64,000 nucleotides of DNA, taken from contig CM097882.1 in the NCBI GenBank assembly GCA_044892505.1, forward strand, positions 253,952,001 through 254,016,000, given 5' to 3'. The notes under the pieces were generated by a model. It had not been told where the DNA came from and ran no database searches. It saw nothing but the letters and a program-made list of their open reading frames with translations. The DNA is from Schmidtea nova (Eukaryota). This document shows positions 4,061-29,245 of the stretch, one piece after another (position 1 is the stretch's first letter; each line of letters begins with the position of its first letter). The translations under genes and the position numbers were made by a program.

Positions 4061-4104
4061 TTGTTGCTTTGTAACCAGTCCTGTTTGACTGTCATCAGGA
4101 GGAT

Positions 4105-4115: not shown

Positions 4116-4119
4116 TTTT

Positions 4120-9794: not shown

Positions 9795-9883
9795 TCTGTA
9801 ATTTACAAATTTACACTTGTTATATTATACGTTTATTGTTGCTGTCGATTTTTACACTTTATTTACAGGGTCGTTCATTCTGA

Positions 9884-11296: not shown

Positions 11297-11385
11297 TCTA
11301 CAACAATATTTACATCAATTTCCCCATATTTTTGATTTTTCTGGTTCTTTATTTACACGTATTTACACAATTTTCCGCTTATTCA

Positions 11386-11858: not shown

Positions 11859-14800
11859 CTATACAACTATTACTGGTTTTCCTTCGTACAGTTCCTCGTC
11901 CTCGATCTGTACCCACATCTCCTCGTGTTTCGATCGTCTTTTCAGTTCCTCTCGTACTTCTTTTGGTAGTTTTATGTTGTAGTTCGTGACCTTTACGTCT
12001 GGCCATTTTACTGCTATGGTCTTATTTCTCATGCCATATCTCCAACATACTATCATGATCGTTATCAGTGGGATACACGCTATGAATACTCCCATGCTGA
12101 TTAAACCCATTATTGTTTTCCCAATGCTCCTTCTTGGAGTCTCACTTTGGTTTATCATCACGCCATATTGACCTTTCCATTCTGCTTCCCATTGTTCATA
12201 TTGTTGTTGTCTCTGTCTGACTTCTTCGATCACTTTCTCTGGTTCCCATCTTTCTTGTTGATTTTGTAGTATTTCCTCCGTCTCTGTTTGTTCTCTTTTC
12301 TGACTCAATTCTCGGAATTCTAACTTGCGGGTTCTCCCCTTTATCGTTATGTTCCTTGGCGTGTAATAGGTTTCGCACCTTTCTTGTGGATTTCCTTGTG
12401 CATCTACTTCTTCGATTGCACACACTTCGTATTCTGCGTTTGTTTTCAACCTCCTCATTTCTACCTCGATTGTTTCCCTTTTATCATTTGATGTCTTTTG
12501 ACAGTTTCGTGGAGACTTTCCCATACTGTTTGGCATTAATGTCCAACAGATTTCTAGGACCTTTTTATGGATCTTCCATATTATCAGAGTCGTTGATTCC
12601 GGTTCGTTTTTTGTTGACGTCCCTTCTGTTGTCTGTTGAGTTCCTTGACTGTTGGTTGTCGTGGTTCTTCTTGACTTTCTTTTCCTTTGTCGACTTCCTC
12701 CCATTTCGATCGTTCTTGTACCGTTAATTTGCTCTGGCGTCTTGTACAGTCTGCACTCCAGGCTTCTTTGTATTACTTCTCTTATTCTTCGGATTACGCA
12801 AATTTCATATGCTTGTCCGACTTCGAATCCATTTAGTTGAAACGGGATTCCTCGTTCTCTCGTCCTGCATTGCGGTAGTACGTGACTGGTCGATACTCCG
12901 ATGTATTTTCTCCAACACATCCCAATTGTTCTCCGACCAATGTTTTTTATCTCCACGGTTACTACTTCATTCGCAATCGTTTCTTGATCTTGTTTCTTTC
13001 TTTTTGGGAACTCAATTATCTCCTTTGCTTGGAACACTTTACACTCGCTTGTTCCTGGTCTGTTTCCGTTTGCTGCCTTTTCCATGAGACATAGTTCACA
13101 TTTTCTATCTGTATCTATTTCGGTTATTTCGATTTCTTCATTTGTCTCTGCTTCTCGACTTTCTCTTGTTTCGCTGATTCCAATTACCTCATTGTTTCGT
13201 CCCCAACATCTTCCGTTCGTTGTTCGTTGGTCTTGGATATTTACTAACGTCATTACGCTAATATCTATGTCCTCCATGATTCTCTTAATGAGGATTAATA
13301 TTAATGCTACACATATCAATTCCGGTTGGAATGTTAATTTTCCCGCTGAATTTTTGGTTATTCTTTCTTTCTCCGTTCGGTTTCCGATTCCTTCTTCTGC
13401 TTCAGATTGATTCTTCCCTTTCTCCGATTCCACTTCTGTTCTTCTCGTTGTCTCTTCGCTTCTTTTCCCAATCCATTTCTGTATCTTTAGCGCTTCTGTT
13501 GCTTTATATAATTGACATGCAGTTACTTGAGGTGCTTTTGGTTCTCCTCTCTGCTTTACTGCGCATATTATGTATGATTTTTCTTTCTCCAATCCTTTGA
13601 TTTGGATGACGTCTCGCTTCAAATCTGATAATATACACTTCAGCGTATCGTTTTTCTTCAGATTTTCTTTCCAGCATATTCTTTCGTATACTTCATTTCC
13701 TCTGATTATTTCCAGCGTGACGTATTGTTTCTTGGCTTCGCCCTGTCCGATGATTGTTATCAATATCGCAATACACAACATTTCTGGTCTCAAAAGTAGA
13801 CTTCCTGTTCGTTTTCCATAGTTCGCATGTTCGTCTTTTGTTCCACTGTTTTCTCGTTCCTCTGCTTCTCCTTTCTTGTCGTTTCTTGTTGGCTTTGGTT
13901 CTTCTTGTCTTTCTTTTTCATTATCCTCTGTTCTTTTGTTGTCATTGTCTTCGTTGTTCTTTTCGCTGTTACTTTTGTCGTCGTAATCTCCGTAACCACC
14001 CCCTGGTCCTTTCGAAATGTCGTCCTCGACATTAATTTCTTCAATCAATCTTTCATACGCTTGAACCGCGAGTGTGCTAGACTCGAATTCACGTATTTCC
14101 ATATCCTTGGATGGTTCTATGTTTTCTAGTCCACTTTGCTTGATCGTTTCTTTGGCATTTGCCCATTCATTCACATATTTTCTGAACAAATCTTTCCATC
14201 TTCCCGTTCGTTCCTGTTCTTTTGGGTTGTTCGTAAATTTCAAATCTCTTCTCTTCAAGAATTCTTCTACTATCTCTGGCTTTTTGTGTCTTAGTAACGC
14301 GCTTCTGATACACCAATTCTGATTCTGTTCCATATTGTCATTGATCTTGAATGCCGGTTCCTTGGTGATCGGATTCACCCATGTTAGTAATGCTCTTGTT
14401 TTCTCTATGTCGTGTATCATTACTGTCAGACTGAAATTCTTTACGTTATTCGCCAGGTATTCTATCTCCTCTTGTCTCTTGATGGACTTTATGAACTTGA
14501 TCATTTCAAAGTTGTTCCATTGTATTGCGATATCTATGATGGAATTATTCTTTCCATTTTTCCCTTCGATTTTTGCTCCTGCTTCGTATAATTCACTTAG
14601 CGCTTTAAAGTTCGTCTTCTTTCTTGCTGCGATTATCATGATTGTATCTCCGTTATCATCAACCGTATTCATGTCCGCTTCGCATTTGACCATTGCTTTC
14701 GTTATTTCTAGCACTTCGTTTTCTTTCTTTCGACGTAATGCCCAGTGTATCGGCAATCTCCCATCCTTTGATAATAGGAATGCCACTGGCATTTGATTCT

Positions 14801-17800
14801 TGATCGTTTCTATGTCACTCTCGTTATAATCTCCTTGTGCGTATCTGTGCACTTTCTCTGTAATTGCTCCTAGTATCTCCAACGAGTTTTTATTCTCCTT
14901 GAATTCTGATAGTCTTTCTTGCGTTTTTGCTACGATTGCGTCTAGTCTCTCTTGATTATCAGCTTTTGCATTGAACAACACTGCTTTGCTTCTTATTCGC
15001 GTTTGCATCTGTTTCATTCGTTGGTCTTGATACACTGCTTGTCTGAAGAATTGTGCATACTTCAATGCTTCCATCAGCTCTTTATATCGCTTGCTTATTT
15101 CTTTGTGCTGCTTTTGGATGTCATAGAAATGTTCAAAGCTCATATCCGGATTCCATTGCTTATCACACCATTTCCTGATTAATCCGAATAATTCTTTCTT
15201 TCTGTCTTCCAACTTGTATTCTCTTGGGTTCTCGCTGACCCGTAGCGTATCTCTCGCTATTAACACTGCAAGTGTTTTTGGATCGTATGTTACTTCTAAT
15301 AGATGTTTCAGTAACACATTTTCTCCCCTTATGAACACTTCATTACAATCTATGACCCACGAATCTCCTTCTGGTCGTTTCCACTTTAGCAATATTCTCC
15401 AGGTTTTACTGTTCTTTACCCCGATTGCTTGTTTCATGATTGATCCTCTGGTTAGTTCATCGATTTCCCACGTGGCATTTTCCGTAATATACTTCAGTAT
15501 TCGGTGATTCGCTCTGTCAATTGCATGATTCAAGAATGTTCGTCCTTCTTTATCTTTTGCCATCCAATTCGATCTGGTGTTTCCGAATAGCTTGATTATT
15601 TCATCGTTTCTTCCGTGAATCGTCATCATCATGAGTGGAGTGATTCCTTCCCAATTCACTTTGTCAATTTCTCCTCCACCTTCGAGTATCATTTCCACGA
15701 TCTCTTTCACTTTTTCGTTTCCACTGTGCTTGATTGCATTATGTAACGCGGTATTACCATCTTTGTCTTGTAGATTCAATGTTTGAGGGATTTCCTCTAG
15801 CAGCGTTCTTGTTATTGGATGCGCTGTTCTGTCTTTTGCATACTCCATTACATACTTTCGAACTTCTGACAGTATATTGAAATCGAGCCACCATTTCCAT
15901 TCTGGTATAATTTCTCTGGTCCTCTTTGCCAGTTCTTTGATGTCTATTGCTTCTCTTCGATTGTCTTCTAGACTTGTTTGCGGCTTTTGTTGTACTCGCA
16001 ACATACTGATTCTCGCCGTCTGTGATCTTGTCATTACCCGTTTCTCTGGTGATAGAGTTGCTGTCTTTGGTATTTTCCTGCATCGACATGCATTCACGTA
16101 TATTGGTCTTACCAATGGATTGTTCACCAATCGTACTCGCACATTATTTTCATTCACTGTCGTGATTTCGTATGGCCCTTTGCCTGGTCGTTGGAGTTTC
16201 TTGACCGTACCGGGTATTATCTCTGGTGTCTCAATTATCACCCAATCTCCAACTTTTAAATCATGTGCTTTCACATTCTTTTTCTGATCATGTAGATCTT
16301 TATAACTCTCTTGATAGAACTTGATGTTTAGTTCCGCCGTTTTCCAGATTTCTTGCATTCTTTCTTTGAACTTTGTAACGTAATCGTCAACCTCCATGTA
16401 CTGTGATAATGGTGGTTGGTATTCTAAATCGATCGGTAAGTTGCAATCTCTTCCGTACATCAGTTGGAATGGACTTAGCTTTGTTGCCGCATGTATTGAC
16501 ATTCTATATGCCATTAAACACAGGTTTATATATTCATCCCAGTCAGTCTGATGTTTACTGACGTAATTCGACAACATGCGTATTAATGTTCCATTGAATC
16601 TTTCTGTTTGACCGTTCGTTTGCGGATGGTATGGGGATGTTCGTAATTTCGCAATTCGGAAGTAATTCGTAACTTCGTCTAATATTTCACTCATGAAATT
16701 CGTTCCTTGATCCGTTAGGATTTTCTTTGGTGTTCCGTATCTGCAGCATATCTCTTCCACCAATATTCTTGCGACTGTTTTCGCCTTTTGATCCGGTATT
16801 GCGAACGCTTCTGGGAACTTTGTTAGATAGTCTGTGACTACTAATATGTATTGATTTCCCTTCAAACTTTCCGGCAATGGTCCAACTACATCCATTGCTA
16901 TCGTCGCCATAGGTTCTGCAGGTATTGGCATTGGTTTTAGCGGTGTTTTCCACTTCGTTCCGACGTTCTTTCTTGTCGCACAGGTTAAGCAGTTCTTTAT
17001 CCATTCTTTCACATCATCTTCCATGGTTGGCCAAAAATACTTTTGTCTCAATCTCCCGATTGTCTTTTTCGCTGACATATGTCCGCCTAATTTTCCGTCA
17101 TGATATTGAGTCATGATTTCCTTTCGTCTATTCGCAGGTAAGCACATTAATCTTCGTTCTCCATCTTGTATCAATAACCATCCTTTTTCCATCACGTATC
17201 TATGTTGGTATTTTTGCATATGTTCGCGCAACGTTTGGTTCTTGCCGAATATTTCCAGTTCCCTTTCTTTCAGATACTTGCTGATCAATCCCAACTCCTC
17301 GTCTTCGAGTTGATCTTTCCTTAATTCGCTGAAATCCAGATCCTCCGCTATTAATGCACATATTTTCAGGGCGTTTAGGTTCACCAATTCTGGAAATGTA
17401 AACCTTGACATGCAATCCGCGTTTGCATTTGCTTTTCCTGCTTTAAACTTTATGAATGGCGAGTATTCTTGCAACTGCATCGCCCAACGCATCAATCTAC
17501 TTGATGATTCTTTATGTTGACCTAACCATACTAGCGGTTGATGATCCGTCGTGATATATATTTCATGACCCCACAGTAGGTACTTGAAATGCTTGATTGC
17601 CAATATTATCGCATAGGCTTCTCTTTCCGTGACTGAGTAATTCTTTTCATGCTTTCTGAATGTTCGACTGTAATATCCGATTACTCTTTCCTTGCCTTCT
17701 TCGTCAAATTGGCCTAGTACTGCTCCTGCTGCGTATCCACTTGCATCTGTTGCCAACAAAAATGGCTTCTTAAAATCTGGATGGACTAATATTGGTGCTG

Positions 17801-20800
17801 TAATCAGCTTATCTCGTAATGTTTCAAATGCTGCTTGCTGCTCTTCTCCCCATACAAACGACACATCTTGTCTTACCAATTCTTGCATTGGCTTTGATAT
17901 TCCTGCATAGTCCTTGATAAACTTGCGATAATATCCACACAATCCCAAAAATTCTTGTATTTGAGTCACTGTCTTTGGTGGTGGACATTCTTTGACTTTT
18001 TCGATATTCCTTGGATCTGGTTCTTTTCCTTTTGCTGATACAATGTGACCTAAGAATGTCACTTTTTCTTTTGCCCAATCGCACTTTGACGGCTTCAATT
18101 TCAGCTTCCACTGCCTCAATTTCACGAACACATTTCTGATGTCTTGTAAGTGATCTTCAAATGTTGCGGAGTAGATCAATAGATCGTCGATATACACCAT
18201 GCATTGTTTTATGCCATGTGTTACGAAATTCATGCATCTCTGGAATGATGCTGGCGCGTTTGTTAACCCAAACGGCATTTTCTTGAATTGGTACAGATCT
18301 CGTCCGATTGTAAATGCTGTCTTTTCTTTATCCTCGTCTTTCATTTTGATCTGCCAATATCCGCTTTTTAAATCCAGTGACGTGAAATAAGCTGCTCCTT
18401 GTAACGTCAATAACATTTCATTTATGTCTGGCAGTGGGTACGTATCTCTTTTCGTAACTGCGTTCAATCGTCTGTAATCGATACAGAATCTCTGAGTTCC
18501 ATCCTTCTTTTTTACCATCACCACTGGGAATTGCCAGGGTGAGCAACTAGGTTCGATGACCTCTGCATCTAACATCTTTTGTACCTCTTCTTCTGCCACT
18601 GCTTTTTGAGCTTCTGCCAATTTGTATGGTCGTAATGCGATTGGCGTTTCGTCCGTCAACGGTATCGTGTGTAATGTTACGTCACATGTTCCTAAATCCA
18701 GATCTGATGCTGCGAATATATCTTTATATTCCATCAACAGTTTCTGTAACTGTTCTTTTTGTCGTTCGTCTAACAACACACTGTCGATTTTCCATGGTAA
18801 TTCGTCTTTGCTTTTCTCGTTCTTGTCTGGTATTTCGATTTCGGACATGGGTGTCAATTTACCCAATCTCTCATTCTCGTATATTATCTTGTCCTCTTCG
18901 TCGAAGTTTACCAGATTGATCGGTATTTCTCCTTCTTGGTTTATCGTGACCAATTCTCTTGCTATTGGTAATTCTTTCTTTGCTTCGAACTTCTTACTTG
19001 GTTCGAATATCATGTCTCCTTTGATTGTCGAATCGATCTTGACGTAACACATCATTTCATGTCTCGCTGGCACTACTATTTGTTCCGCACTTGCCACTTT
19101 AACTTTCATCCTGCAGATTTTCCCTGTCCTATCTTTTAACTTCATTGCTCCTAGATCGATTACGATTTCCTTAAACAGGTCTGGCATCAGGTCAGTTCCA
19201 ATAATACATGGTACACTCAGCGATGGTATTACAGCGATGTACGTGTTGATTTCTGCACCTCGATGCTTAATTTTTACAAACCATCTTCCGGCTACTTCTA
19301 CTGTCTCCTGACTGCACGCGATTACATGTACATTCGTCTTCTCAATTTCTCCTTGGTTCTTCTCTGGTATATAATTAATGTCGATCGCCGAAATATTCGC
19401 GCCTGTATCGATCATCGCTTCGATTTCTCTTCCATTTATTTCTACGGTTGTTGTTAAAATCGGTCCCATGTTTGTGGACATAACCGCTATCGTGTGCGTG
19501 TCTTCTAACGAATTTACACTTCCACCTCGTTTTACTTTGCATCCTTCTGGAATTATCGGGTATATACTTGTCATCGGCATCATCTGCATCATATTCGGTT
19601 TCGCTTTGTATATCGGTTCGTTATACATTGACTGGGGTGGAGCACTGTATCTCCAATTCTCAACTGCACTCTTTTCGTTATACTGTGGAATCTGGTTTAT
19701 ATTCGCTTGTCCTCCTTGATCGTCATCGTCATCATCATCATTGCTTGAATCATCTTGTGTTCGATATCCCCTTACTCTTTCCCATAGTCCTTTTCTTTCT
19801 TTCTTTAGTTGTCGCCTTGCTTGTTCATCTTGCATTATCTTTTTGAATTTCCTTCCGACATCTTCATTTGTTCCTCTCATTTTTGCAAGTATCTTTAACA
19901 ACCTCTTTATTCGATGTATGTCTTTTGAGTGTCCGTGTAACACCATCGTTTTCGCAAGGAATGGCAAAAATCCTACTACCATCTTCCAATTCACTTTCTT
20001 CTCTCTCTTGTAGATATCGAAACACGCTAACATTTGCGTTATTATCACCCTGACGATTTGTATTATCAATATAACACCCAGTATTCCAGCCATCATTTGT
20101 CCAAATATCAGGAATCTTCCCCACATTGCCTTCATCATATTTTCTGTGGCTTTCTTGAAATGTGCCGGTGACAACAACAGTTCGTAATTCGGTCCTTCTC
20201 GATAATTCGTTCCTCCCGTTATTGTTACGATATTTGACAGTAATGCTTCTCTTCTTGCCGGGAATAATATATTCTGCCTTGCCGCTTCTAAATCTTTTGG
20301 ACTATAGATTCCGTTGTTTGAGACATCTACGTCACTGAACTGTCTATCCTTTGACAACTGCATTAGCTCAAATTCTCTTGGTGCTAATACTTCAGTTCTT
20401 CCTGGGAACATGACCCATTTGCCATCTGGCTTCTGATAAAGCGGTCCGTACGCGTTACTACAGTTGAACGGATTTGGTTCAAAACTTGGTGGATTGATGA
20501 TTCTCGTCACCGGTTGAACGTATCGTACTTTTCCTTTATAATCGATTTCTAGTTCGTTTGTACATTGTCCAGGTTTCAACTGCGTTGTTGCTGCTAGCGA
20601 TGCGTGTGTCTTTTCGCAAATGTATACATACATTGCTTCTCCGACCACTCTTCCGAAATGTCCTTCTCTCAGTGGTAATAATGGCATCGCGCTATCTGGA
20701 TTCGTAATCGCTACGGCCAACTTTGTCTTTAATATTTCTCGATTCAATATACAATCGTTGTTTATCAGATCATAGTACACTTTTTGCAATGAGGCTTGTC

Positions 20801-23800
20801 CTCTATGGAATAAGAAATCCATTTTATTATTCACATACAAGTGTAGCTTGATATCCATTGTGTCGATCTTGGGTTTCGCATTCGGCACTTCTTGCTTTGA
20901 CACGTATATTCCTGGATAGTTTGTTTCGTATACTGTTGTACTGCACTTAAGGGTTGCTTTCCCTTTTATGAATCTCATGCCCACATCCTGATTTGTGGTT
21001 ATCAACACTGTTGGTGTGGTTCTCATCTCTATCCGTTTCTCTCTATGATCCGGTTTCAATTGTCTTTTATTCTCTAAAGCCTCTTTGAGATGTTTTGCTC
21101 TAGCTTTGTCATCATCATCTTCTTCTTGGAACGTTTTGCCTTGAATTTCGTCGAACTTTGCTCCTTGTAGCAGTTGTAATTGACATTCGTTCACCTTTGG
21201 TTTGTACACCAAAGTTGACATTCCCGTTTGACACATGCTTCTGTCAATTTTACACATGGATAACGTTTTCATTTCTCCTGTTGTTGGTTCGAAGAATGCT
21301 TCGTAGCTTTTCAGTTCGACTATATACGTATCCATTACCACTAAGTTGGTTGCGGGTACTCCGAATATTGGGTAGGTTTCTCCTTGACAATATCCTTCTC
21401 CTCCCGTAATCCGTCCTGCTACATAATATGTCTGCTGCAACATCATTCCTGGCTTTCCTTTTATCTTGATTTTATCTCTCGTTGTCACTTCTCCATGTTT
21501 AAACAATGCTTCGCAGTCTTCTCCTTGCAACACGATTGGTTCTCTTTCGGTTCCTGGCATGACAATTGCCGAATAATGTCCTCTCCCACAATAGAATGCG
21601 AATCTCGTCTTCTGTACCTTGCATTCATTCACCATTGTCTTTATTAGTTCTGCCTCTTGATACACGTGGTACCATTGTTCCTTTTTGATCTCTTTCAATT
21701 CTACTGGGGTTGCATCTTTGCATTGCTCCGTACCTCTCAATGAGTACTTTTCTCCTAACTTCATTTGATCACAATCAAATACTTCAAATGTTGTTGCACC
21801 CTCTGTGCTTAACAACCATACTAACATCATCATGATTATCGAGTTCAAATTCAACGTCGATCTTCCGTTTCCTTGCATTGTTTGTCTATTCTCCATTTCT
21901 CTCAATACTCCTTCGAGTTTCTTTCTCATCACGTTAGAACCTTCTTTTGTCTGATTCTCTTTTATGAACTTTTCCCATCCTCCTTTCCTGAGGATATATG
22001 GTTCAATTTCTTTCTCGATAATCATCGTCGTATTTTTAATATGTCTTCCCATCGGACTTGACTTCGGGCTTCCTCGGCTTAGCGTTAACAAATTGTATAT
22101 TGTATACGAGATTGCTACTAGATATTTACTGTCCGTCTCTGCTCCGTTAAGTAGCCTTTTTATTAACATAGTGGTTCCTTGCCAATCTAGATGATTCGAT
22201 TTTGTTTTTGCCTTTATCAATTCTGGCATAATCGGTGCTATCGCATTGTGTAGCATCCTTGCCTTTGTACTGGGTTCGTTTATCCGCCACAAATTCTTTA
22301 ATTCTGGATCAATTATCGCCAACACATCCATTATCGTTTTGGTGAGCCATTCTTCTCCTTGACAGACTTGATTCTCCTCTTTGCCTCTGATTTCTGCGAT
22401 TTTGTCTAATTTCTTTAAGCAAATCTCCCATTGCTCTTGTCTCCTTTCTTCCCTTGTTTTTGGGATTGCTGTTGTTGGATCTATCTTTGGTCTTCCTCTT
22501 GGTCGTTTTTCCATTCCAGTTCCGGTTTCTACAAATCTCGTTGCTCTTCCTGTTTCTTCCGTAACATCTCTTCCTTCGTTTGCTCGCTGTTCTAACCATC
22601 TTTCCATTTCTTGAGTAAACTGGGGTTGTTCTTGTTCGTCTTCCGAATCGTTCACCATTTCTATGACTACCTCTTGCTCCACTTCTTGATCGTCGATTTC
22701 TGCTGGTGACGTTATTGGCATCTCTATTATTCTGTCAAAAATATTCGCCGTTGGTTTTTGAGTCAACTTTGTTAGTTCTTCTATCGCCTCATCACTATCT
22801 GTTAGTATCTCATCGACGTCATACGCTTCTGGCGGTGTTCTCTCTCTCGTTTTGATTGGTGTTGTCCTTGCTTGTCCCGAACTTGTTCCTGGGGTCATTG
22901 TTGACTTCATCGGACTTGGTGTACTCATGCTTCCTTTCGCTTTCTTTTCCTCTTTGAACTTCAGTGGTTGACCCACTATTTGTGCCACTGTTAGCGTATT
23001 CATTAGATCCAATTGCACTGGTGTCAGCCAGATTTCCAAATTGTTATCCAACGATCGTCCTTGATGTTGCAGGTGGAATGGTAGTTCGTACATCAGTTTC
23101 TCTTTAACACTTTTCACTTTTTCCGTTAGCATCACCCAAAACTCTTCTTTTCTCTGATTCGGATACATTATCCTCAAATGTATTTTCTGTGGCGTTTCTT
23201 CCGCAAATTCTCGGTTTCTCCACTTTTTTATTACGTCGTCTAGTTGCTCTGGACACCACTTGTTAACTCTCTTGTATTCTGCTATCGCTTTAGCTACTTT
23301 TCTCAAGTTCGTTATGTCTTCTCCATTTGAGATTATGAAACCTGCTAAACCTTTTATTGTTTGTCTTTTTCCCCGAGTATTTCCTCTCAACAGCTCGATC
23401 AATTCACTCGTTTTCTGTTTCTCCAATTCTGCCCATATTACTGCAGTTTCTGGTCCGTCTAAGTCCGTTGGTAATAACCTCCTTGTTACCATACATATCC
23501 GTTTCGTATTCCGTTCATTTCCGTCTTCTCCTTCCGGATCTTCTTCATACACGCCTCTTTTCACTTTCCAACATTTCTCTTTGTTATCCCATTGCTTCTC
23601 TACTGGCGTCAATCGTCGTCTATTAAGATCCAATTCTCCCAATATTGTCTCCCATTCTGGCTTCATCTGCCAGTTCCGATAGATTTCTACTATCTGCCTC
23701 AGCTTACGCATAACGTCCTCTTGTCGTTTCTTTTTCCTTTCCTCATCCCTTGGTGTTGCTCTTTGCACATCATCCATTCTGATGACGTGTATTGTCTGAT

Positions 23801-26753
23801 AATTATCCCATATGCCGATTTTATACGCTCGTCTTCCATCACGTTCATTCAGTAGATGTTCTTTGTATTTTATAGCGATGTCATCCTCAAATTCGTCTTC
23901 CCGTTCTCGTTGTAATATCGTCTCATTGATGACATCTACTATTTCTCCCACTTTACTATCTGGTATTACCTCAATTTGTCTTGTCTCTTCATTCGGTAAT
24001 CTCACGGTAATCTTCAGATCTGATACCTCTCCTCTTTTAAACATTTCTTTTCCCATCTTTGCGATTAGCTTGTCCGTTTTGAAATTCGAATGTCTCGTTT
24101 GACTTGTATCTCGTATGTTCTCGATACATTGCTTCAAATTCTCATACTCGCTTTTCGTCAGTTCCTTTCGATGTTTCTTGATTTGTTGGATGATCTGTTC
24201 TATCATCGTATTCAAATTCTCTGCCAAGACTCTTTCTTTTGCCTCTACCAACTGAGGTTTTATTCTCATCTCGTAACACGTATTCGCTTCTTTGACGATT
24301 CCTTGTAAGTTCTCTTCCTTTTTGGTGTTGCATATAGATAGCGTTGTTATTTCTCCTGGCCAGATGCCTGTGTCTATCATATGCGTTCCTTTTCTCACCA
24401 ATCCGTTTTCCGAATATATGAATTTGTCTTTGTACGAGCTTCCCAATCTGTCCTCAACCCATCGGTAAATTCCGTCTGTCACTGGGTTCCTTATCCAGAT
24501 TCTCGGTGAACACTCGTTTATCCATATCTGTATTATGTATTCGTTCAGTGGTTCTTTCAATAGCCTCTCTATGAATTCTTGTATTACCCTCACTTCTCTT
24601 TCTTGTAACCACTCTTTATACTTCATCTGCCATACTGCTCGTATAAACTTTCTATATCGTTTCCCGTCGATAAACTCTTCGTTGTGGATTACTTCTAACG
24701 CGTTATCCATCAGCTTCTGAATTTCGTCTTCCCTTACTGACACTGTTTCTATTGTCTCGACTACTTCCATCTTTTTATCCTCGTTTTCCGGTTCCTTTAG
24801 CATGTCTCCTGCCAGACTGCTAACTTCGCTGTCGTCTTCTTCATCTGACAATTCTTGTCTTGGGTGTCTCAGCATCCCAATATGCGCGGTTGGTCTCGCT
24901 TCGTTTTTGCTAACTTCCTGTGTTAGTTCACTTTCGTTTCCCGTTACTTCAGCTTTTCCCATTCTTTTCTCTAACTCATCTATTTCTTCCAACCGTCTTC
25001 GTCTTATTTTTCCCTTGAATATTCGACTGATCCGAGTTTGGTGTTTCACTGGTGGTGGGATTTTCTCCGGTTCCACCTCTCTGATGATCATCACGTTTAT
25101 TTTCGTCTCCGTTACTCCCATATCTTCCCATATATCGGTCATCTTTAACTTCACTTCTGGCAAATCCTCTGTTTGTAGGAATGCTTCTCTGGGCAGTTTC
25201 GTTATTCCCGGAATCATCTCATTTACTTTATTGAACAGTCTTCCCACTTCTTCTTTTACATCGTATTTGAATCGCCATACGTGATCATTCGGCATGATCA
25301 CCAACATTCCTCTTTGTTTGATTCTCACTTCCTCTTCTTGATTCGTTTCTTTTTCTGTTTCTGTTTCTTTTTCCACTTCTTCATCCTTTTGATTCTGCTC
25401 TGCGACTTCTACTTCCTGATTCACTTCTTCTTGTTTCTGTTCTTCGTTTCTTTTCTCTTTAACTTCTAACTCGTCTGACTCATCCTGCTGCTTCTCTTCC
25501 ATCATTGCTCGCATCATGTTGATCCTTGGATTTCCTTTCTTTAACTGTTGTAACCGTTGTTGCCTGACTTGTTCTTCTTCTCGTCGTACTCTGGCCCATT
25601 CTTGATTATGTTTCTGTTGGCTTTCTCTATTTTCTCTTTCGGCCTCAGCTTCTATTAGCTGGATCATGTTTATCTTTGGTTGAGCAGCTTGTTGGCTTCC
25701 TTTTGCCATGCTTTCGATTATCTCGTGTAATCTGGATACCTCCTGTCTCAACTTGGCTTCTTTCATACTGGCTTCATTTGCACTGCTATTTGGGTTATTC
25801 CGTTGTTGACCCTGATTCCCATAGCTTGGTCGATTCTCGTAATTCGGTCTATTTCCACTGTTTGACCAACTTCTCTGTTGATTACAGTCTCTTGACATGT
25901 GTCCGGTTTTTCCACATGTGTAACACGTTTTCCCATAACATCGATTTTCTGAGTGACCCTTTTGTCCACACAGTTTACAGGCTACATTCTGAAAACACTC
26001 TTGTTGCCAATGTCCGTTTTTCCCACACGTCTGACATTGCCTATTCTGCCTGTCATTGTAACTATTTCCTCCATTCGTATTCACCGTAATATATCCGTTA
26101 TTCTTCCTCGCTGGCGGTTCTTTGAACAATCTCTGCGAATGGGGAATACTTTGATTCATGTTTCTTTTTCCTTGTTCTTCATCTTCTGTCGTTTTTCCCA
26201 TTACCGCCGTAATTCTCATGTCATTCATTGCCATATGCAATTCGAATAGGTTGGCTGCTTCCAACGCTTCATCTACTGTTTTACATCCCTTGCATCCCAC
26301 TTGTGCTCTGATGTCAGGTCTCCTGAGACCTCGTACGAATAACGCTGTCATCAATTCTTCGTCTACTGGGCTTCCTCTATTGAATGCCAGTTTCGCCAAC
26401 TTTCTTAATTCACTTGCGTACACTGCATTTGACTCGTTTCTCCTCTGTTTTCTTGCTGAGAACTCATCGAACGCTTCGTTCAACACTTTATTTATCCCAA
26501 ACGTCTGTTGGAAGAACTCCTTGATCGCTTCCCACGTTCTGGGTGGATTACTTCCCGATCTCTTCTCAATATACAGATCCAATGCGCTATCTTTTAAGTA
26601 TAGCGGGATTCGATTCGCTAACGTTTCTGCACTCCATCCGCATATATCCACGAATATGCCAAATTCCTTCAGGAACGTGTCCAATCTACTGGCGTCTCCA
26701 TTAAATGGTTCGCCCTTGAATTTTTCTCTTAGATCCTCTCTGTGATCACTCAT
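11859..26753 (-). CDS. gag-env-pol: Single 4,964-aa polyprotein: Gag, 3 CCHC knuckles, Ubl-like x3, AT-hook, Bcl-2-like, Env, PR, RT, RNase H, IN, ankyrin repeats, FN3-like repeats, TM
   Basis: Uninterrupted ORF with motifs CxxCx4Hx4C x3, IDTGA, YIDD, LATDASG, H-H-C-C zinc domain, MDVVGP/TDQG/TERFN, GPYE and GNTALHNA. Confidence 0.95.
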   Translation of the reverse strand: MSDHREDLREKFKGEPFNGDASRLDTFLKEFGIFVDICGWSAETLANRIPLYLKDSALDLYIEKRSGSNPPRTWEAIKEFFQQTFGINKVLNEAFDEFSARKQRRNESNAVYASELRKLAKLAFNRGSPVDEELMTALFVRGLRRPDIRAQVGCKGCKTVDEALEAANLFELHMAMNDMRITAVMGKTTEDEEQGKRNMNQSIPHSQRLFKEPPARKNNGYITVNTNGGNSYNDRQNRQCQTCGKNGHWQQECFQNVACKLCGQKGHSENRCYGKTCYTCGKTGHMSRDCNQQRSWSNSGNRPNYENRPSYGNQGQQRNNPNSSANEASMKEAKLRQEVSRLHEIIESMAKGSQQAAQPKINMIQLIEAEAERENRESQQKHNQEWARVRREEEQVRQQRLQQLKKGNPRINMMRAMMEEKQQDESDELEVKEKRNEEQKQEEVNQEVEVAEQNQKDEEVEKETETEKETNQEEEVRIKQRGMLVIMPNDHVWRFKYDVKEEVGRLFNKVNEMIPGITKLPREAFLQTEDLPEVKLKMTDIWEDMGVTETKINVMIIREVEPEKIPPPVKHQTRISRIFKGKIRRRRLEEIDELEKRMGKAEVTGNESELTQEVSKNEARPTAHIGMLRHPRQELSDEEDDSEVSSLAGDMLKEPENEDKKMEVVETIETVSVREDEIQKLMDNALEVIHNEEFIDGKRYRKFIRAVWQMKYKEWLQEREVRVIQEFIERLLKEPLNEYIIQIWINECSPRIWIRNPVTDGIYRWVEDRLGSSYKDKFIYSENGLVRKGTHMIDTGIWPGEITTLSICNTKKEENLQGIVKEANTCYEMRIKPQLVEAKERVLAENLNTMIEQIIQQIKKHRKELTKSEYENLKQCIENIRDTSQTRHSNFKTDKLIAKMGKEMFKRGEVSDLKITVRLPNEETRQIEVIPDSKVGEIVDVINETILQREREDEFEDDIAIKYKEHLLNERDGRRAYKIGIWDNYQTIHVIRMDDVQRATPRDEERKKKRQEDVMRKLRQIVEIYRNWQMKPEWETILGELDLNRRRLTPVEKQWDNKEKCWKVKRGVYEEDPEGEDGNERNTKRICMVTRRLLPTDLDGPETAVIWAELEKQKTSELIELLRGNTRGKRQTIKGLAGFIISNGEDITNLRKVAKAIAEYKRVNKWCPEQLDDVIKKWRNREFAEETPQKIHLRIMYPNQRKEEFWVMLTEKVKSVKEKLMYELPFHLQHQGRSLDNNLEIWLTPVQLDLMNTLTVAQIVGQPLKFKEEKKAKGSMSTPSPMKSTMTPGTSSGQARTTPIKTRERTPPEAYDVDEILTDSDEAIEELTKLTQKPTANIFDRIIEMPITSPAEIDDQEVEQEVVIEMVNDSEDEQEQPQFTQEMERWLEQRANEGRDVTEETGRATRFVETGTGMEKRPRGRPKIDPTTAIPKTREERRQEQWEICLKKLDKIAEIRGKEENQVCQGEEWLTKTIMDVLAIIDPELKNLWRINEPSTKARMLHNAIAPIMPELIKAKTKSNHLDWQGTTMLIKRLLNGAETDSKYLVAISYTIYNLLTLSRGSPKSSPMGRHIKNTTMIIEKEIEPYILRKGGWEKFIKENQTKEGSNVMRKKLEGVLREMENRQTMQGNGRSTLNLNSIIMMMLVWLLSTEGATTFEVFDCDQMKLGEKYSLRGTEQCKDATPVELKEIKKEQWYHVYQEAELIKTMVNECKVQKTRFAFYCGRGHYSAIVMPGTEREPIVLQGEDCEALFKHGEVTTRDKIKIKGKPGMMLQQTYYVAGRITGGEGYCQGETYPIFGVPATNLVVMDTYIVELKSYEAFFEPTTGEMKTLSMCKIDRSMCQTGMSTLVYKPKVNECQLQLLQGAKFDEIQGKTFQEEDDDDKARAKHLKEALENKRQLKPDHREKRIEMRTTPTVLITTNQDVGMRFIKGKATLKCSTTVYETNYPGIYVSKQEVPNAKPKIDTMDIKLHLYVNNKMDFLFHRGQASLQKVYYDLINNDCILNREILKTKLAVAITNPDSAMPLLPLREGHFGRVVGEAMYVYICEKTHASLAATTQLKPGQCTNELEIDYKGKVRYVQPVTRIINPPSFEPNPFNCSNAYGPLYQKPDGKWVMFPGRTEVLAPREFELMQLSKDRQFSDVDVSNNGIYSPKDLEAARQNILFPARREALLSNIVTITGGTNYREGPNYELLLSPAHFKKATENMMKAMWGRFLIFGQMMAGILGVILIIQIVRVIITQMLACFDIYKREKKVNWKMVVGFLPFLAKTMVLHGHSKDIHRIKRLLKILAKMRGTNEDVGRKFKKIMQDEQARRQLKKERKGLWERVRGYRTQDDSSNDDDDDDDQGGQANINQIPQYNEKSAVENWRYSAPPQSMYNEPIYKAKPNMMQMMPMTSIYPIIPEGCKVKRGGSVNSLEDTHTIAVMSTNMGPILTTTVEINGREIEAMIDTGANISAIDINYIPEKNQGEIEKTNVHVIACSQETVEVAGRWFVKIKHRGAEINTYIAVIPSLSVPCIIGTDLMPDLFKEIVIDLGAMKLKDRTGKICRMKVKVASAEQIVVPARHEMMCYVKIDSTIKGDMIFEPSKKFEAKKELPIARELVTINQEGEIPINLVNFDEEDKIIYENERLGKLTPMSEIEIPDKNEKSKDELPWKIDSVLLDERQKEQLQKLLMEYKDIFAASDLDLGTCDVTLHTIPLTDETPIALRPYKLAEAQKAVAEEEVQKMLDAEVIEPSCSPWQFPVVMVKKKDGTQRFCIDYRRLNAVTKRDTYPLPDINEMLLTLQGAAYFTSLDLKSGYWQIKMKDEDKEKTAFTIGRDLYQFKKMPFGLTNAPASFQRCMNFVTHGIKQCMVYIDDLLIYSATFEDHLQDIRNVFVKLRQWKLKLKPSKCDWAKEKVTFLGHIVSAKGKEPDPRNIEKVKECPPPKTVTQIQEFLGLCGYYRKFIKDYAGISKPMQELVRQDVSFVWGEEQQAAFETLRDKLITAPILVHPDFKKPFLLATDASGYAAGAVLGQFDEEGKERVIGYYSRTFRKHEKNYSVTEREAYAIILAIKHFKYLLWGHEIYITTDHQPLVWLGQHKESSSRLMRWAMQLQEYSPFIKFKAGKANANADCMSRFTFPELVNLNALKICALIAEDLDFSELRKDQLEDEELGLISKYLKERELEIFGKNQTLREHMQKYQHRYVMEKGWLLIQDGERRLMCLPANRRKEIMTQYHDGKLGGHMSAKKTIGRLRQKYFWPTMEDDVKEWIKNCLTCATRKNVGTKWKTPLKPMPIPAEPMATIAMDVVGPLPESLKGNQYILVVTDYLTKFPEAFAIPDQKAKTVARILVEEICCRYGTPKKILTDQGTNFMSEILDEVTNYFRIAKLRTSPYHPQTNGQTERFNGTLIRMLSNYVSKHQTDWDEYINLCLMAYRMSIHAATKLSPFQLMYGRDCNLPIDLEYQPPLSQYMEVDDYVTKFKERMQEIWKTAELNIKFYQESYKDLHDQKKNVKAHDLKVGDWVIIETPEIIPGTVKKLQRPGKGPYEITTVNENNVRVRLVNNPLVRPIYVNACRCRKIPKTATLSPEKRVMTRSQTARISMLRVQQKPQTSLEDNRREAIDIKELAKRTREIIPEWKWWLDFNILSEVRKYVMEYAKDRTAHPITRTLLEEIPQTLNLQDKDGNTALHNAIKHSGNEKVKEIVEMILEGGGEIDKVNWEGITPLMMMTIHGRNDEIIKLFGNTRSNWMAKDKEGRTFLNHAIDRANHRILKYITENATWEIDELTRGSIMKQAIGVKNSKTWRILLKWKRPEGDSWVIDCNEVFIRGENVLLKHLLEVTYDPKTLAVLIARDTLRVSENPREYKLEDRKKELFGLIRKWCDKQWNPDMSFEHFYDIQKQHKEISKRYKELMEALKYAQFFRQAVYQDQRMKQMQTRIRSKAVLFNAKADNQERLDAIVAKTQERLSEFKENKNSLEILGAITEKVHRYAQGDYNESDIETIKNQMPVAFLLSKDGRLPIHWALRRKKENEVLEITKAMVKCEADMNTVDDNGDTIMIIAARKKTNFKALSELYEAGAKIEGKNGKNNSIIDIAIQWNNFEMIKFIKSIKRQEEIEYLANNVKNFSLTVMIHDIEKTRALLTWVNPITKEPAFKINDNMEQNQNWCIRSALLRHKKPEIVEEFLKRRDLKFTNNPKEQERTGRWKDLFRKYVNEWANAKETIKQSGLENIEPSKDMEIREFESSTLAVQAYERLIEEINVEDDISKGPGGGYGDYDDKSNSEKNNEDNDNKRTEDNEKERQEEPKPTRNDKKGEAEERENSGTKDEHANYGKRTGSLLLRPEMLCIAILITIIGQGEAKKQYVTLEIIRGNEVYERICWKENLKKNDTLKCILSDLKRDVIQIKGLEKEKSYIICAVKQRGEPKAPQVTACQLYKATEALKIQKWIGKRSEETTRRTEVESEKGKNQSEAEEGIGNRTEKERITKNSAGKLTFQPELICVALILILIKRIMEDIDISVMTLVNIQDQRTTNGRCWGRNNEVIGISETRESREAETNEEIEITEIDTDRKCELCLMEKAANGNRPGTSECKVFQAKEIIEFPKRKKQDQETIANEVVTVEIKNIGRRTIGMCWRKYIGVSTSHVLPQCRTRERGIPFQLNGFEVGQAYEICVIRRIREVIQRSLECRLYKTPEQINGTRTIEMGGSRQRKRKSRRTTTTNSQGTQQTTEGTSTKNEPESTTLIIWKIHKKVLEICWTLMPNSMGKSPRNCQKTSNDKRETIEVEMRRLKTNAEYEVCAIEEVDAQGNPQERCETYYTPRNITIKGRTRKLEFRELSQKREQTETEEILQNQQERWEPEKVIEEVRQRQQQYEQWEAEWKGQYGVMINQSETPRRSIGKTIMGLISMGVFIACIPLITIMIVCWRYGMRNKTIAVKWPDVKVTNYNIKLPKEVREELKRRSKHEEMWVQIEDEELYEGKPVIVV
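12040..13790 (-). other. C-terminal membrane-associated region with 3-4 FN3-like Cys-Trp repeats and three hydrophobic segments
   Basis: Repeats containing ICW/MCW and IKGLEKEKSYIICAV, LNGFEVGQAYEICVI, MRRLKTNAEYEVCAI (FN3-type L...Y.I/V.V pattern); TM GLISMGVFIACIPLITIMIVCW. Confidence 0.5.
14400..15800 (-). other. Two clusters of ankyrin repeats C-terminal to integrase
   Basis: NLQDKDGNTALHNAIK, DKVNWEGITPLMM, DKEGRTFLNHAID; SKDGRLPIHWAL, NTVDDNGDTIMIIAA, GKNNSIIDIAI. Confidence 0.85.
16050..19470 (-). other. pol: Pol core: aspartic protease (~19140-19470), RT (~18000-18600), RNase H (~17400-17760), integrase (~16050-17110)
   Basis: IEAMIDTGANISAI; FQFKKMPFGL, YIDD; LATDASG, TEREAYAI, TDH; HDGKLGGH...CLTC, D-D-E triad, GPY. 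Confidence 0.95.
19950..21855 (-). other. env: Envelope glycoprotein of chuvirus/Monjiviricetes (class III, gB-like) type within polyprotein
   Basis: Signal peptide NSIIMMMLVWLLSTEGA|TTFEVFDC; Cys-rich ectodomain; furin-like REKR; YVNNKMDFLF...CILNREILKTKLAVAITNPD...GHFGRVVGEAMYVYIC, as I recall from chuvirus-type G; TM FLIFGQMMAGILGVILIIQIVRVII. Confidence 0.8.
21960..22352 (-). other. Candidate Bcl-2-like domain within polyprotein
   Basis: BH2-like YILRKGGWEKFI (cf. WIxxxGGWxxF) and weak BH1-like NHLDWQGTTMLI in a ~130-aa helical segment. Confidence 0.5.
25884..26753 (-). other. Gag capsid-like domain and three CCHC zinc knuckles (part of polyprotein)
   Basis: EPFNGDASRLDTFLKEF...LYLKDSALDLY (retrotransposon Gag); CQTCGKNGHWQQEC, CKLCGQKGHSENRC, CYTCGKTGHMSRDC. 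Confidence 0.9.
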
Positions 26754-28088
26754 CCCGATTCCACTATCTTGGAATACTGTACTAGTTTTCTTTACTTCTA
26801 GTTCACCACTTGTTTCTGAATTCGACTCTTCTTCTCCGCTACTCTCTGTTTCGTTATCTCTTGATTCGCTTCTTGTTCTGTTTTCCCTGACTAGTTCACT
26901 GTCTATCGTCTCTACTTCGTTTTGTACTTCTAGATCTTCTGGGGTTTCTTCTTGGTTCTCTTTATTACTCGAATTATCGCTGATCTCTACTTGTTTGTTC
27001 TTTTGCTGCTTAGGCTTGTTACCTGTTCTTGTCCTTTTTGCTGCTTTTCTTTCTGCTTCCGTTAAGATTGGTATTATACCTGATCTTGTTTCTCGTCCCT
27101 CAATTTTGTCTATTCCTCAACTTCTTATATTCTCAACTGATTTTCTACTCCGCTTTTGCTTTGCTTCTTCTTTGATTTGTTTCCTTTGATTGCTCTGACT
27201 GCTAGATTGCTTTGAATTGCTTGATTGATTTGTTTCCTTAAAACAAATAATCACTTACACGATACGTCCCCGTTATCGTGTTTCTCGTCCCTCTCACGGG
27301 TGTAGTCATAATTCATGAAGATCCCCATTTTTCCCATTCCCCTTGATTTTAAGTCTATTTAAATTATCTATGCAGTCGTATCAATTATCTATTCTTTATC
27401 AAATACACCAATTACTTTTCCCCAGTTTCCCAATTACTTTGTCGCTCAGCGCTCTTATTATCCCCTTTACTTTTTCTCAGGCTTCTCTGGCTCTGAGTTC
27501 AAATTTCCCCTTATCTGTCGACTAGTCTGTTTTTCGACTACTCACTTTATCTCCTATTCACACTACGTTTACTACTTCATTTCAATTCTCATCTCTACTC
27601 ACCTTTAATTCAACTGACATCTCTCGTTGGCCTGTTGGGCTTTCCAATCAGCGCCTTTCATCTCACCCTTTATCTCGACTTTATTACTCTCAACATCACT
27701 CATTATCTCATTAGCCTGCTGGGTTTTCCAGTCAGCGCTTTTATGATCCTCCATTTACCTCTTTGCTGTCGACTTCTAACTGCTCTTTACTTTTCATCAC
27801 TTTTCATACTGTTACTCCACATACTATTCATCATGCTTCATTCATCCCCATATTTTCACATTCATACTTTCATTCTCATGCATACTTTTATCATGCTCAT
27901 CAATCTCATTATTTTACACTCATATTTTTATTTATTATTTTTCAACCCGATTCATTCTTGCTTCAGGACCCTCAAACCCTCTATTATTTACTTTACTTTT
28001 CCTCGCTAAATTCAATTCCATCCCGGTTCATGCGCTCTAACACTGTCCGCAGATATCGAATTCACTTTTTCCCACAAAGATCGATTTA

Positions 28089-28106
28089 ATCCCGGCTGAG
28101 CCCCCA
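28089..28106 (-). promoter_or_regulatory. Primer-binding site TGGGGGCTCAGCCGGGAT (tRNA-Pro-like)
   Basis: Lies 6 nt inside the 5' LTR; 16/18 match to the MLV tRNA-Pro PBS TGGGGGCTCGTCCGGGAT. Confidence 0.85.
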
Positions 28107-28499
28107 AATTTATGCTGGTGTGTTGGTTGGATTGACAACTGAGATCCTTATGATTTTATACGTTAGGGTGATCTCGCCAACATAAAAACATTTCCCCCGC
28201 TGACACCCATGATGTATCCCTAACTACTCATCATGTTGGTGCTGTGTCAACGTTGTGAAATGACAAGGCAGGTGAGCAACCTTTCGGCTACTATTCCCTT
28301 GTTTATTCACGGGTCCACCACTACCGATAGAAGGTGTCTGTGGCTTTCTTTCGGTCCCACTTATGCTCTTTACTTTGCTCTAGGGTAATTTATATTTTTG
28401 ATATCTGCAGCCAAAAAATGAATCCGGGTTTTTGTTACTTTTAATTCTCATACATGCGTCAAACAAACAAAACAAATCAAATCATTCATTTATATACAT

Positions 28500-29099
28500 T
28501 TATTTGTAGTTCAACAATACAGAGGGTCGGATTACATTTAGTAGTTCTTGCTCGGATAGACCACTGAGCAAGTCTACCTCGATTCCTACGCGATCTGCAT
28601 ATGCGCGTCTTTCCCTGCGCTTTTTCGCTCCTAAACGATTCCGTCTCTTTGTGCGTTGTGAGCCTGCGGGAATCGTATTTGTCACTGTAGTAGTCGTGGC
28701 TACGGTCGAGGCATTCTCTGTTTGGGTGCTCGTAGTCACCGCTATCGCGTCTATCCATCGATTAAAGGTGCTAGCTCTGATCACTGGGCGTAGTTGGTCG
28801 GTGATGAAGTCGCGAGTCGATACCTTCAAATAATTCGCCAACTCCAATTTCAGGGCTGCAATCTCTCTGGCATGGTCCTCAGCTACTCGTTCTGCCCTGT
28901 ACCTAGCCTGCAGGATGGACTTAACCCGCTCTGGGTTAAACCAGGTAGTCTTAATCCGCTGATGCTCCTCATTCAGCTGCCTTAATCGATTTTCCAGGAC
29001 TCGTGAGCGCGCCTTGTGTTCTCGCGCCTCTTGCTTGAAGTCTCTGCCCTCGGTTTCCGTCATGTCTGTAAATACATCATTAATGTTAGTATCTGTCAT
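28500..29099 (-). CDS. Copy of the 199-aa LTR ORF in the 5' LTR
   Basis: Identical translation to 4936..5535. Confidence 0.55.
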   Translation of the reverse strand: MTDTNINDVFTDMTETEGRDFKQEAREHKARSRVLENRLRQLNEEHQRIKTTWFNPERVKSILQARYRAERVAEDHAREIAALKLELANYLKVSTRDFITDQLRPVIRASTFNRWIDAIAVTTSTQTENASTVATTTTVTNTIPAGSQRTKRRNRLGAKKRRERRAYADRVGIEVDLLSGLSEQELLNVIRPSVLLNYK

Positions 29100-29245
29100 G
29101 TGTCTGATTTTTCGGTCATCCTATCGTCATTAAACAGCTCTACCTTATCCTTAGGTTGTTCTCATGCACTCAAAACAAAACAAGACCGTTGCACACCGAT
29201 ACATATATTTCAATATCTAAGACAATCATTCTTTCTCGGTATCAA

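What the first reader, a model, noticed from the sequence alone, without database searches (positions are those of the whole stretch)
19950..21855. Chuvirus-type envelope glycoprotein embedded between Gag and protease in the same reading frame
Seen: signal peptide, Cys-rich ectodomain, REKR furin-like site and TM lie upstream of PR with no stop or frameshift. Established: env normally lies 3' of pol as a separate spliced ORF, and chuvirus-like glycoproteins are known mainly from BEL/Pao elements. Inference: the polyprotein must cross the ER membrane, leaving PR-RT-IN on the Env cytoplasmic tail and needing signal peptidase, furin and PR processing, like a flavivirus/alphavirus polyprotein.
Basis: partly seen in the sequence, partly recalled or inferred. 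Interest (0 to 1): 0.85.

Follow-up and report, generated by a model that had tools for sequence, protein, structure and literature searches.

The report
Planarian retroelement envelope inside one polyprotein
A young, multi-copy retrovirus-like jumping gene, likely of a planarian flatworm, carries a virus-type fusion protein gene in one reading frame between its capsid and enzyme genes; this layout is real but already published, and the predicted furin cut is not conserved.

Summary
One 5,085-codon frame (11859-27116, minus strand) of a 26.8-kb LTR element reads Gag, glycoprotein, PR-RT-RH-IN, ankyrins without a stop. The glycoprotein matches Pfam Monjiviricetes_fusion (E 4.6e-73). Its model matches chuvirus glycoproteins and herpesvirus gB, so it is class III. 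The layout is published: in-frame env between gag and pol in planarian Burro elements (PMC6431247), and gB-type GAG-ENV-POL elements in flatworms, nematodes and bryozoans (PMC13524379). This scan also found it before on other DNA. Added here: a signal-peptidase site fits 19 of 20 sequences. Env is under purifying selection like RT and IN. None of 113 RT-selected copies joins gag to pol without env. REKR is not conserved: 0 of 19 relatives have the motif, and the sister subfamily reads QEKQ. A second signal, FN3-like repeats and a membrane helix follow integrase, so Pol is likely anchored at both ends. No RNA or protein data. New member of a known kind.

The parts
28113..31394 (-). 5' LTR (TG...CA), about 3.28 kb
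   Evidence: 99.97% identical to the other LTR over 3,287 nt; ends read
4549..7830 (-). 3' LTR; 4-bp target-site duplication TTAT at 4545-4548 and 31395-31398
28088..28106 (-). primer-binding site complementary to the 3' end of tRNA-Pro
   Evidence: 16 nt shared with genomic tRNA-Pro(TGG) genes, followed by CCA
11859..27116 (-). ORF1, 5,085 codons stop to stop; first Met at codon 122 (26753)
25884..26753 (-). Gag: capsid (aa 122-320) and three CCHC knuckles (aa 361-411)
   Evidence: Retrotrans_gag E 3.5e-06; zf-CCHC E 2.1e-09; motifs
21927..22259 (-). Bcl-2-like helical domain just before the signal (indirect)
   Evidence: no Pfam hit itself; 28% identical, E 2e-08, to the stretch of P0007 that hits Pfam Bcl-2 at E 0.0015, below cut-off; Atlas gave nothing
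21789..21854 (-). internal signal sequence, aa 1755-1776; predicted signal-peptidase cut between aa 1776 and 1777
   Evidence: small residue at -1 in 19 of 20 and at -3 in 18 of 20 sequences, background 0.23 and 0.32
20106..21788 (-). gB-like class III fusion ectodomain, aa 1777-2337, 14 cysteines
   Evidence: PF24664; model pLDDT 87.5; Foldseek gB E 8.3e-14, chu-like G E 3e-37; all 14 Cys kept in every aligned relative
21033..21044 (-). REKR furin-like motif in a variable, low-confidence charged loop (aa 1995-2035); not conserved
19941..20105 (-). Env transmembrane helix (aa 2338-2362) and a conserved short hydrophobic helix (aa 2375-2392), likely on the cytosolic face
   Evidence: pN/pS 0.00-0.01; 95% identical in the sister subfamily
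19467..19940 (-). Env cytoplasmic tail / linker to the protease
   Evidence: no stop, none of the 17 listed slippery heptamers between aa 1553 and 2915, no dip in synonymous variation
16137..19451 (-). Pol: protease, RT, RNase H, integrase (H2C2, rve, GPY motif) in Ty3/gypsy order
14337..15788 (-). ankyrin repeats
   Evidence: Ank_2 E 4.9e-20
11862..13811 (-). second predicted membrane protein: signal-like segments (aa 4436-4460, 4591-4612), four Cys/Trp FN3-like repeats, TM (aa 5001-5025), short tail
   Evidence: model pLDDT 80 whose listed PDB matches are almost all FN3 domains, E 0.03-0.18, none at 0.001; no Pfam fn3 hit
9884..11314 (-). accessory ORF2: TRAF-like protein (RING, zinc finger, MATH)
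   Evidence: MATH_2 E 9.1e-27
8634..9824 (-). accessory ORF3: coiled-coil-looking protein, no family

Best explanation
The stretch encodes a chuvirus-related glycoprotein with a predicted herpes-gB-like (class III) fusion fold, in frame between the Gag half and the protease of a young, multi-copy Burro-type Ty3/gypsy element, and it is likely made from one polyprotein that ER signal peptidase would cut at the start of Env, leaving PR-RT-IN on the Env tail until the element's own protease likely frees them. Steps: (1) Shown: one frame with Gag, signal, ectodomain, TM, PR-RT-RH-IN, ankyrins, a second signal, FN3-like repeats and a last TM. (2) Inferred: the first ~1,630 residues are made in the cytosol, and the internal signal starts translocation. 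(3) Inferred: the cut after aa 1776 leaves the Gag-side product held by the signal helix, directly behind the Bcl-2-like domain. (4) Inferred: the Env TM stops transfer, so Pol and the ankyrins form a cytosolic loop held at its start by Env and at its end by the second signal. (5) Inferred: Gag and Pol are thereby gathered on the same membrane face; Env oligomers bring protease copies together, and the protease matures Gag and Pol as particles bud. (6) Furin is likely dispensable. Env is needed for the family's spread, most likely for entry into new cells.
For: Unbroken frame in 23 of 77 scored copies and the same order in distant relatives at 33-39% identity. Signal and (-3,-1) site kept in 19/20 and 18/20 sequences. 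Fold: profile search ranks gB in its first 33 rows, best E 0.0019; Foldseek gB E 8.3e-14. Selection, shared variants, copies picked by the C-terminal region: ectodomain pN/pS 0.020, RT-RH 0.012, IN 0.026; RT-picked copies: Env 0.040, TM+helix 0.011, RT 0.007. 107 of 113 RT-picked copies carry env in place, 6 are cut or interrupted by unrelated DNA, none joins gag to pol. Synonymous variation is not suppressed at either Env border. More positive charge lies after the TM than before it. A second signal after integrase appears in 6 of the 8 relatives that run past the integrase GPY/F motif; the other two are P0008, which appears cut short, and P0020, which also has a signal but no clear final TM.
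Against: No transcript, protein or particle was seen. A single unregulated frame gives Gag, Env and Pol 1:1:1, unusual for retroelements (recalled), so splicing or early termination may exist. Topology rests on hydropathy and alignment, not on SignalP or DeepTMHMM. The two tandem signal-like segments after integrase do not give one clear topology. TM-scores to solved gB are only 0.26-0.44. Copies were the best-scoring ones of thousands of candidates (77 of 3,629; 68 of 2,838; 150 of 23,204), so env-less forms among older copies would be missed. pN/pS are counts against the window copy, not phylogenetic estimates.
Confidence: 0.68

Rival explanations
1. The genomic frame is continuous, but spliced or early-terminated RNAs make the working proteins (Gag alone, Gag-Pol without Env, or Env alone), so the full membrane-crossing polyprotein is minor.
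For: It would solve the 1:1:1 stoichiometry; copia-type single-ORF elements splice to make Gag (recalled). Synonymous variation is lower in the first 400 codons, which could mark RNA signals or only packaging signals.
Against: No env-skipped copy among 113 RT-picked copies, though such an RNA would keep both LTR ends and the primer site. The recurrent deletions found lack GT-AG ends and remove pol, not env alone. The signal has no separate start site requirement and is conserved as an internal element. A Gag-only spliced RNA is not excluded.
Confidence: 0.17
2. Env is kept as a membrane scaffold for assembly or a cell-to-cell contact protein and no longer fuses membranes; replication stays inside one cell.
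For: The TM and cytosolic helix are more conserved (95%) than the ectodomain (80%) between sister subfamilies. No particles or fusion were seen.
Against: The whole ectodomain is constrained like RT and IN, all 14 cysteines are kept at 27-40% identity, and the full gB-like fold is predicted.
Confidence: 0.1
3. One reading: furin cleavage at REKR is a required maturation step besides signal peptidase and protease.
For: REKR fits R-X-K/R-R and lies in an exposed low-confidence loop; 19 of 19 top-scoring copies keep it (biased set).
Against: 0 of 19 relatives have R-X-K/R-R in this loop. The first arginine is lysine in 4 of 20 and 3 of 20 copies (5 of the latter not covered). Residues 2021-2025 hold 5 of the 27 shared non-synonymous variants listed for aa 1777-2400. 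Both sister loci read QEKQ. PMC13524379 says the furin site is not always conserved in gB-type ENV.
Confidence: 0.05

Closest known systems
Burro / GYPSM1 giant gypsy-like LTR elements of dugesiid planarians (PMC6431247, section 7 read whole)
   Same: One ORF of about 4,900-5,100 aa; Gag with three CCHC knuckles; BCL2-like domain, then env, then PR, in frame; env hits mononegavirus fusion glycoproteins; ankyrin repeats; MATH/TRAF domain as an accessory ORF as in the D. tigrina element.
   Different: 26.8 kb rather than over 30 kb; the TRAF ORF lies downstream of ORF1, not upstream; no BIR hit in the ORFs scanned. The review links the env to gypsy F-type Env, while the fold here is gB-like. It does not mention topology, cleavage or a second membrane protein. 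Identity to Burro1-4 was not measured.
GAG-ENV-POL 'HSV/gB-type' errantiviruses, Smed_errantivirus_1-6 (PMC13524379)
   Same: Gene order, gB-type env, multi-copy young families, furin site not always conserved; by eye the supplement rows for Smed_errantivirus_5 and _6 share the motifs PGTERE (row 5) and GMRFIKG (rows 5 and 6) with this Env.
   Different: A distinct family. The paper speaks of ORFs; 'polyprotein', 'fused', 'splic' and 'fibronectin' have 0 occurrences in its main text, so processing and the second membrane protein are not treated there.
Chuvirus and related Monjiviricetes glycoproteins (PF24664); BEL/Pao elements with chuvirus glycoprotein (PMC7642597, search listing only)
   Same: Same Pfam family; best predicted-structure matches, TM-score up to 0.72 at 15-20% identity.
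   Different: Those are stand-alone genes of about 650 aa with an N-terminal signal, in RNA viruses or BEL/Pao elements; here the gene is internal to a Ty3/gypsy polyprotein.
Flavivirus, alphavirus and hepacivirus polyproteins; foamy virus Env leader (recalled, no call)
   Same: Internal signals and signal peptidase cut a chain that crosses the ER membrane; a capsid-side product stays anchored by the signal helix.
   Different: Unrelated proteins and class II or class I fusion folds; an analogy of working, not of family.

Membership tests
Ty3/gypsy LTR retrotransposons (Metaviridae) | PR-RT-RH-IN order with H2C2/rve integrase and GPY/F motif | tested here: met
Ty3/gypsy LTR retrotransposons (Metaviridae) | LTRs with TG...CA ends, short target duplication, tRNA primer site | tested here: met
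Ty3/gypsy LTR retrotransposons (Metaviridae) | RT groups with Ty3/gypsy in a tree with named references | not tested
Burro/GYPSM1-like elements | single ORF of about 5,000 aa with env in frame between a BCL2-like domain and PR | tested here: met
   the BCL2-like part only indirectly
Burro/GYPSM1-like elements | ankyrin repeats and a MATH/TRAF domain | tested here: met
Burro/GYPSM1-like elements | ubiquitin/SUMO-like, dUTPase-like and BIR domains | tested here: inconclusive
   no Pfam hit for the candidate stretches and no BIR hit; relative P0005 hits ubiquitin weakly, E 0.018; the review found some of these by HHpred, not available here
Burro sensu stricto (Burro1-4 of S. mediterranea) | total length over 30 kb | tested here: not met
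   4549-31394 is 26.8 kb; filed as Burro-like, not as Burro1-4
Burro sensu stricto (Burro1-4 of S. mediterranea) | sequence identity to a named Burro family | not testable with these tools
   no Burro sequence was available; the original paper was not held
Class III (HSV/gB-type) fusion proteins | gB-like fold with long central helix and conserved disulfides | tested here: met
Class III (HSV/gB-type) fusion proteins | trimer and hydrophobic fusion loops | not tested
   three ectodomains exceed the complex tool's 1,000-residue limit; loops were not mapped
Class III (HSV/gB-type) fusion proteins | membrane fusion activity | not testable with these tools
   needs an experiment
Chuvirus-type glycoprotein family PF24664 | score above the curated cut-off | tested here: met
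   246.7 bits against 27
BEL/Pao elements with chuvirus glycoprotein | BEL/Pao-type Gag and Pol | tested here: not met
   Pfam hits are the Retrotrans_gag, RT_RNaseH and Integrase_H2C2 set; that this set marks gypsy rather than BEL is recalled

The most novel reading that the evidence does not exclude
These elements package their enzymes through the envelope protein instead of a Gag-Pol fusion: signal peptidase severs Gag from Pol, Pol stays tethered between the Env tail and a second, FN3-like surface protein, and so every round of replication needs membrane assembly of an enveloped particle with two surface proteins. That would be an infectious retroelement with a flavivirus-like expression strategy spreading among planarian stem cells.
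Probability: 0.3. Interest if true: 0.75.

Novelty: new member of a known kind. Interest (0 to 1): 0.33.

Why it matters
The gene order is known, but I found no paper that tests how such a polyprotein is made or cut. If Pol rides into particles on the Env tail, it is a different solution to retroelement assembly than Gag-Pol fusion. It would also mean that very abundant planarian repeats behave as endogenous viruses moving between cells, which bears on somatic mosaicism and piRNA defence in regenerating animals. The evidence here narrows the tests: one predicted signal-peptidase site, a dispensable furin motif, a highly conserved TM and cytosolic helix, and a second membrane protein.

Tried and rejected
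RNA evidence: no RNA holder listed; the four runs laid are contigs of unknown kind and show no joint that skips env among those listed, which says nothing on splicing. Single-sequence search of the PDB found nothing; the profile search was needed. The FN3-like repeats have no Pfam fn3 hit and no PDB profile hit; the Atlas lead was 0.87, under its 0.9 line. The Atlas gave nothing for the Bcl-2-like stretch. The first pN/pS estimate used copies chosen by Env score and was replaced by sets chosen by other regions. I first thought the sister subfamily lacked the first post-integrase signal and repeat; a direct alignment shows it has both. Frameshift control: 17 slippery heptamers occur, none near the Env borders. 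A second TM after the Env TM (aa 2375-2392), which would make Pol luminal, was rejected: its uncharged core is about 13 residues with a proline, and the hydropathy scans did not call it. The wide structural search was busy and not run. Grohme 2018 and Sacco 2022 were not held, so what they say on processing is unseen. A sequence look-up of earlier findings was blank. No trimer job was run.
Full report
The observation. The coordinates fall in one frame of 5,085 codons on the minus strand, 11859-27116. The frame belongs to an LTR element: repeats of about 3.28 kb at 4549-7830 and 28113-31394 are 99.97% identical, end in TG...CA, and are flanked by a TTAT duplication. A primer site matches tRNA-Pro genes of the genome. 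Along the frame lie Gag with three CCHC knuckles, a signal-like segment at aa 1755-1776, a 561-residue ectodomain with 14 cysteines, a TM at about aa 2338-2362, then PR, RT, RNase H, integrase and ankyrins. Two accessory frames follow, one a TRAF-like protein. In the own genome 77 of 3,629 candidates were scored; all are 99-100% identical in the ectodomain and 23 have unbroken frames of 5,076-5,114 codons. The fusion is therefore real and young, not an assembly error.

What the protein is. The stretch scores 246.7 bits on Pfam Monjiviricetes_fusion. A single-sequence search of solved structures found nothing, but a profile of 133 sequences ranks herpesvirus gB in its first 33 rows, best E 0.0019. 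The model (mean pLDDT 87.5, pTM 0.72) matches gB over about 650 columns, best E 8.3e-14, with TM-scores of only 0.26-0.44. Among predicted viral structures the best matches are chu-like and related glycoproteins, E down to 3e-37, TM-score up to 0.72. Trimer, fusion loops and activity were not tested.

Processing signals. I aligned the Env region of the window with 19 relatives chosen because they extend beyond Env or cover its start. All 14 cysteines are kept in every sequence that covers them. A hydrophobic stretch precedes the first conserved cysteine in all 20; the predicted cut has a small residue at -1 in 19 of 20 and at -3 in 18 of 20, against backgrounds of 0.23 and 0.32 (one sequence was offset by two residues for an insertion). 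The TM and a short helix after it are kept in the 17 of 19 relatives that cover them in frame and are 95% identical in a sister subfamily whose ectodomain is 80% and protease 79% identical. REKR behaves differently. It sits in a variable loop of low model confidence; 0 of 19 relatives have R-X-K/R-R there; own copies read KEKR in 4 of 20 and 3 of 20 cases; both sister loci read QEKQ. Four strands separate the loop from the central helix, whereas the furin loop of herpesvirus gB directly precedes that helix (recalled). Furin is likely not required.

Is Env needed, and is it spliced out? Counting variants shared by two or more copies, in 20 copies picked by the C-terminal region (16 covered Env), pN/pS is 0.020 for the ectodomain, 0.012 for RT-RH and 0.026 for integrase. 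In 26 RT-picked loci it is 0.040 for Env, 0.011 for TM plus helix and 0.007 for RT. Env is thus constrained like the enzymes. An RNA that skipped env would still carry the primer site and both ends and should leave copies. Of the first 113 RT matches (those of this subfamily), 70 have a listed Env match at the expected distance. The other 43 were read: 37 carry the whole ectodomain, 6 are cut or interrupted by unrelated DNA, and none joins gag to pol. Synonymous variation shows no dip at either Env border. This argues against an env-skipping replicative RNA but does not exclude a spliced Gag message. No RNA run was available.

After integrase and the ankyrins come two further signal-like segments, four repeats with invariant Cys and Trp, and a last TM. 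The sister subfamily has all of these. A post-integrase signal-like segment is also present in P0004, P0005, P0006, P0009, P0010, P0013 and P0020, with a TM near the end in the first six; P0008 shows none and appears cut short. One repeat folds as a six-strand beta sandwich (pLDDT 80) whose listed matches are almost all FN3 domains, though none reaches E 0.001. I saw this module, which showed that earlier agents had noted it on other DNA.

How it likely works. Shown: the order of parts and their conservation. Inferred: the N-terminal 1,630 residues are cytosolic; the internal signal opens translocation; signal peptidase cuts after aa 1776; the Env TM stops transfer; Pol forms a cytosolic loop anchored by the Env tail and by the next signal; the element's protease releases the enzymes when Env clusters at a budding site. 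The Gag-side product would keep the signal helix right behind a Bcl-2-like domain, where Bcl-2 proteins carry their tail anchor (recalled; the domain call is indirect). The open problem is stoichiometry. I put this model at 0.68, regulated splicing at 0.17, a non-fusing scaffold at 0.10 and required furin cleavage at 0.05.

What is known. PMC6431247 (passages; section 7 whole) describes Burro elements with env between BCL2 and PR and calls it the first case of in-frame env between gag and pol. PMC13524379 (abstract; passages; section 5 part 1 of 2; section 6 part 1 of 2; section 14; supplement rows) reports GAG-ENV-POL elements with gB-type ENV in flatworms, nematodes and bryozoans, lists six from Schmidtea mediterranea, and notes that the furin site is not always conserved. 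PMC8532177 (passages) shows BURRO1 RNA rising on loss of SMEDWI-2. Grohme 2018 and Sacco 2022 were not held and are known to me only through these citations; Sacco 2022 may discuss polyprotein processing. Searches listed no paper whose title or abstract start deals with the topology, processing or second membrane protein of these elements; most listed papers were not opened. The host is inferred to be a planarian from this homology.

Verdict. Real, well supported as a gB-like chuvirus-type envelope inside a Ty3/gypsy polyprotein, and already described as a kind. The additions are the conserved signal-peptidase site, the dispensable furin motif, the strength of selection on Env, the lack of env-skipped copies and the double anchoring of Pol. 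Interest 0.33; the boldest reading, Env-mediated packaging of Pol, has probability 0.3 and would merit 0.75.

Noticed in passing
window 11862-13811 (-): A second predicted membrane protein ends the polyprotein: two signal-like segments, four FN3-like repeats, a TM and a tail. It is under weaker purifying selection (repeats pN/pS 0.05-0.32).
   Followed up: partly
L032, L036, L040 (window equivalent 18816 to 14172): An identical in-frame 4,650-nt deletion in 3 of 20 env-picked copies removes RT, RNase H, integrase and ankyrins but keeps Env, protease and the C-terminal module; ends are not GT-AG. Likely a non-autonomous subfamily that has itself been copied.
   Followed up: partly
L060 (window equivalent 23878 to 14040): A 9,861-nt in-frame deletion removes env and pol and joins the Gag half to the C-terminal membrane module.
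   Followed up: no
L090-L093: A sister subfamily (RT 95%, Env 80%, Gag 62% identical) with many 5,140-codon frames; the review gives 5,140 aa for a D. tigrina Burro-like ORF1, possibly a coincidence.
   Followed up: partly
window 26754-27116 (-): 121 open codons precede the first Met; they show pN/pS 0.32 among copies and an open counterpart in the sister subfamily, so the true start may lie upstream.
   Followed up: partly
P0004, P0006, P0012, P0013: Relatives carry two to four protease-like domains, some after integrase.
   Followed up: no
window 28500-29995 and 4930-6400 (-): The LTRs hold open frames of 206 and 249 codons.
   Followed up: no
window 1-1059 (+): Fragment of a related element, 78% identical to the PR-RT region, in opposite orientation.
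   Followed up: no
window 2324-4177 (-): 617-codon frame with a DUF7041 hit (E 3.6e-06), Gag-like by look, between ~265-nt direct repeats.
   Followed up: no
window 44576-54406: Frames that look like a Polinton (DNA polymerase B, capsid-like genes); named by look, not scanned.
   Followed up: no
window 59925-63851 (+): BEL/Pao-looking gag-pol with an in-frame stop; named by look.
   Followed up: no
G000:C1 near 459.61-459.66 Mb (L094): A long tandem array with a 308-nt period carrying tRNA-Pro(TGG) genes; the pattern has 899 matches in the genome.
   Followed up: no
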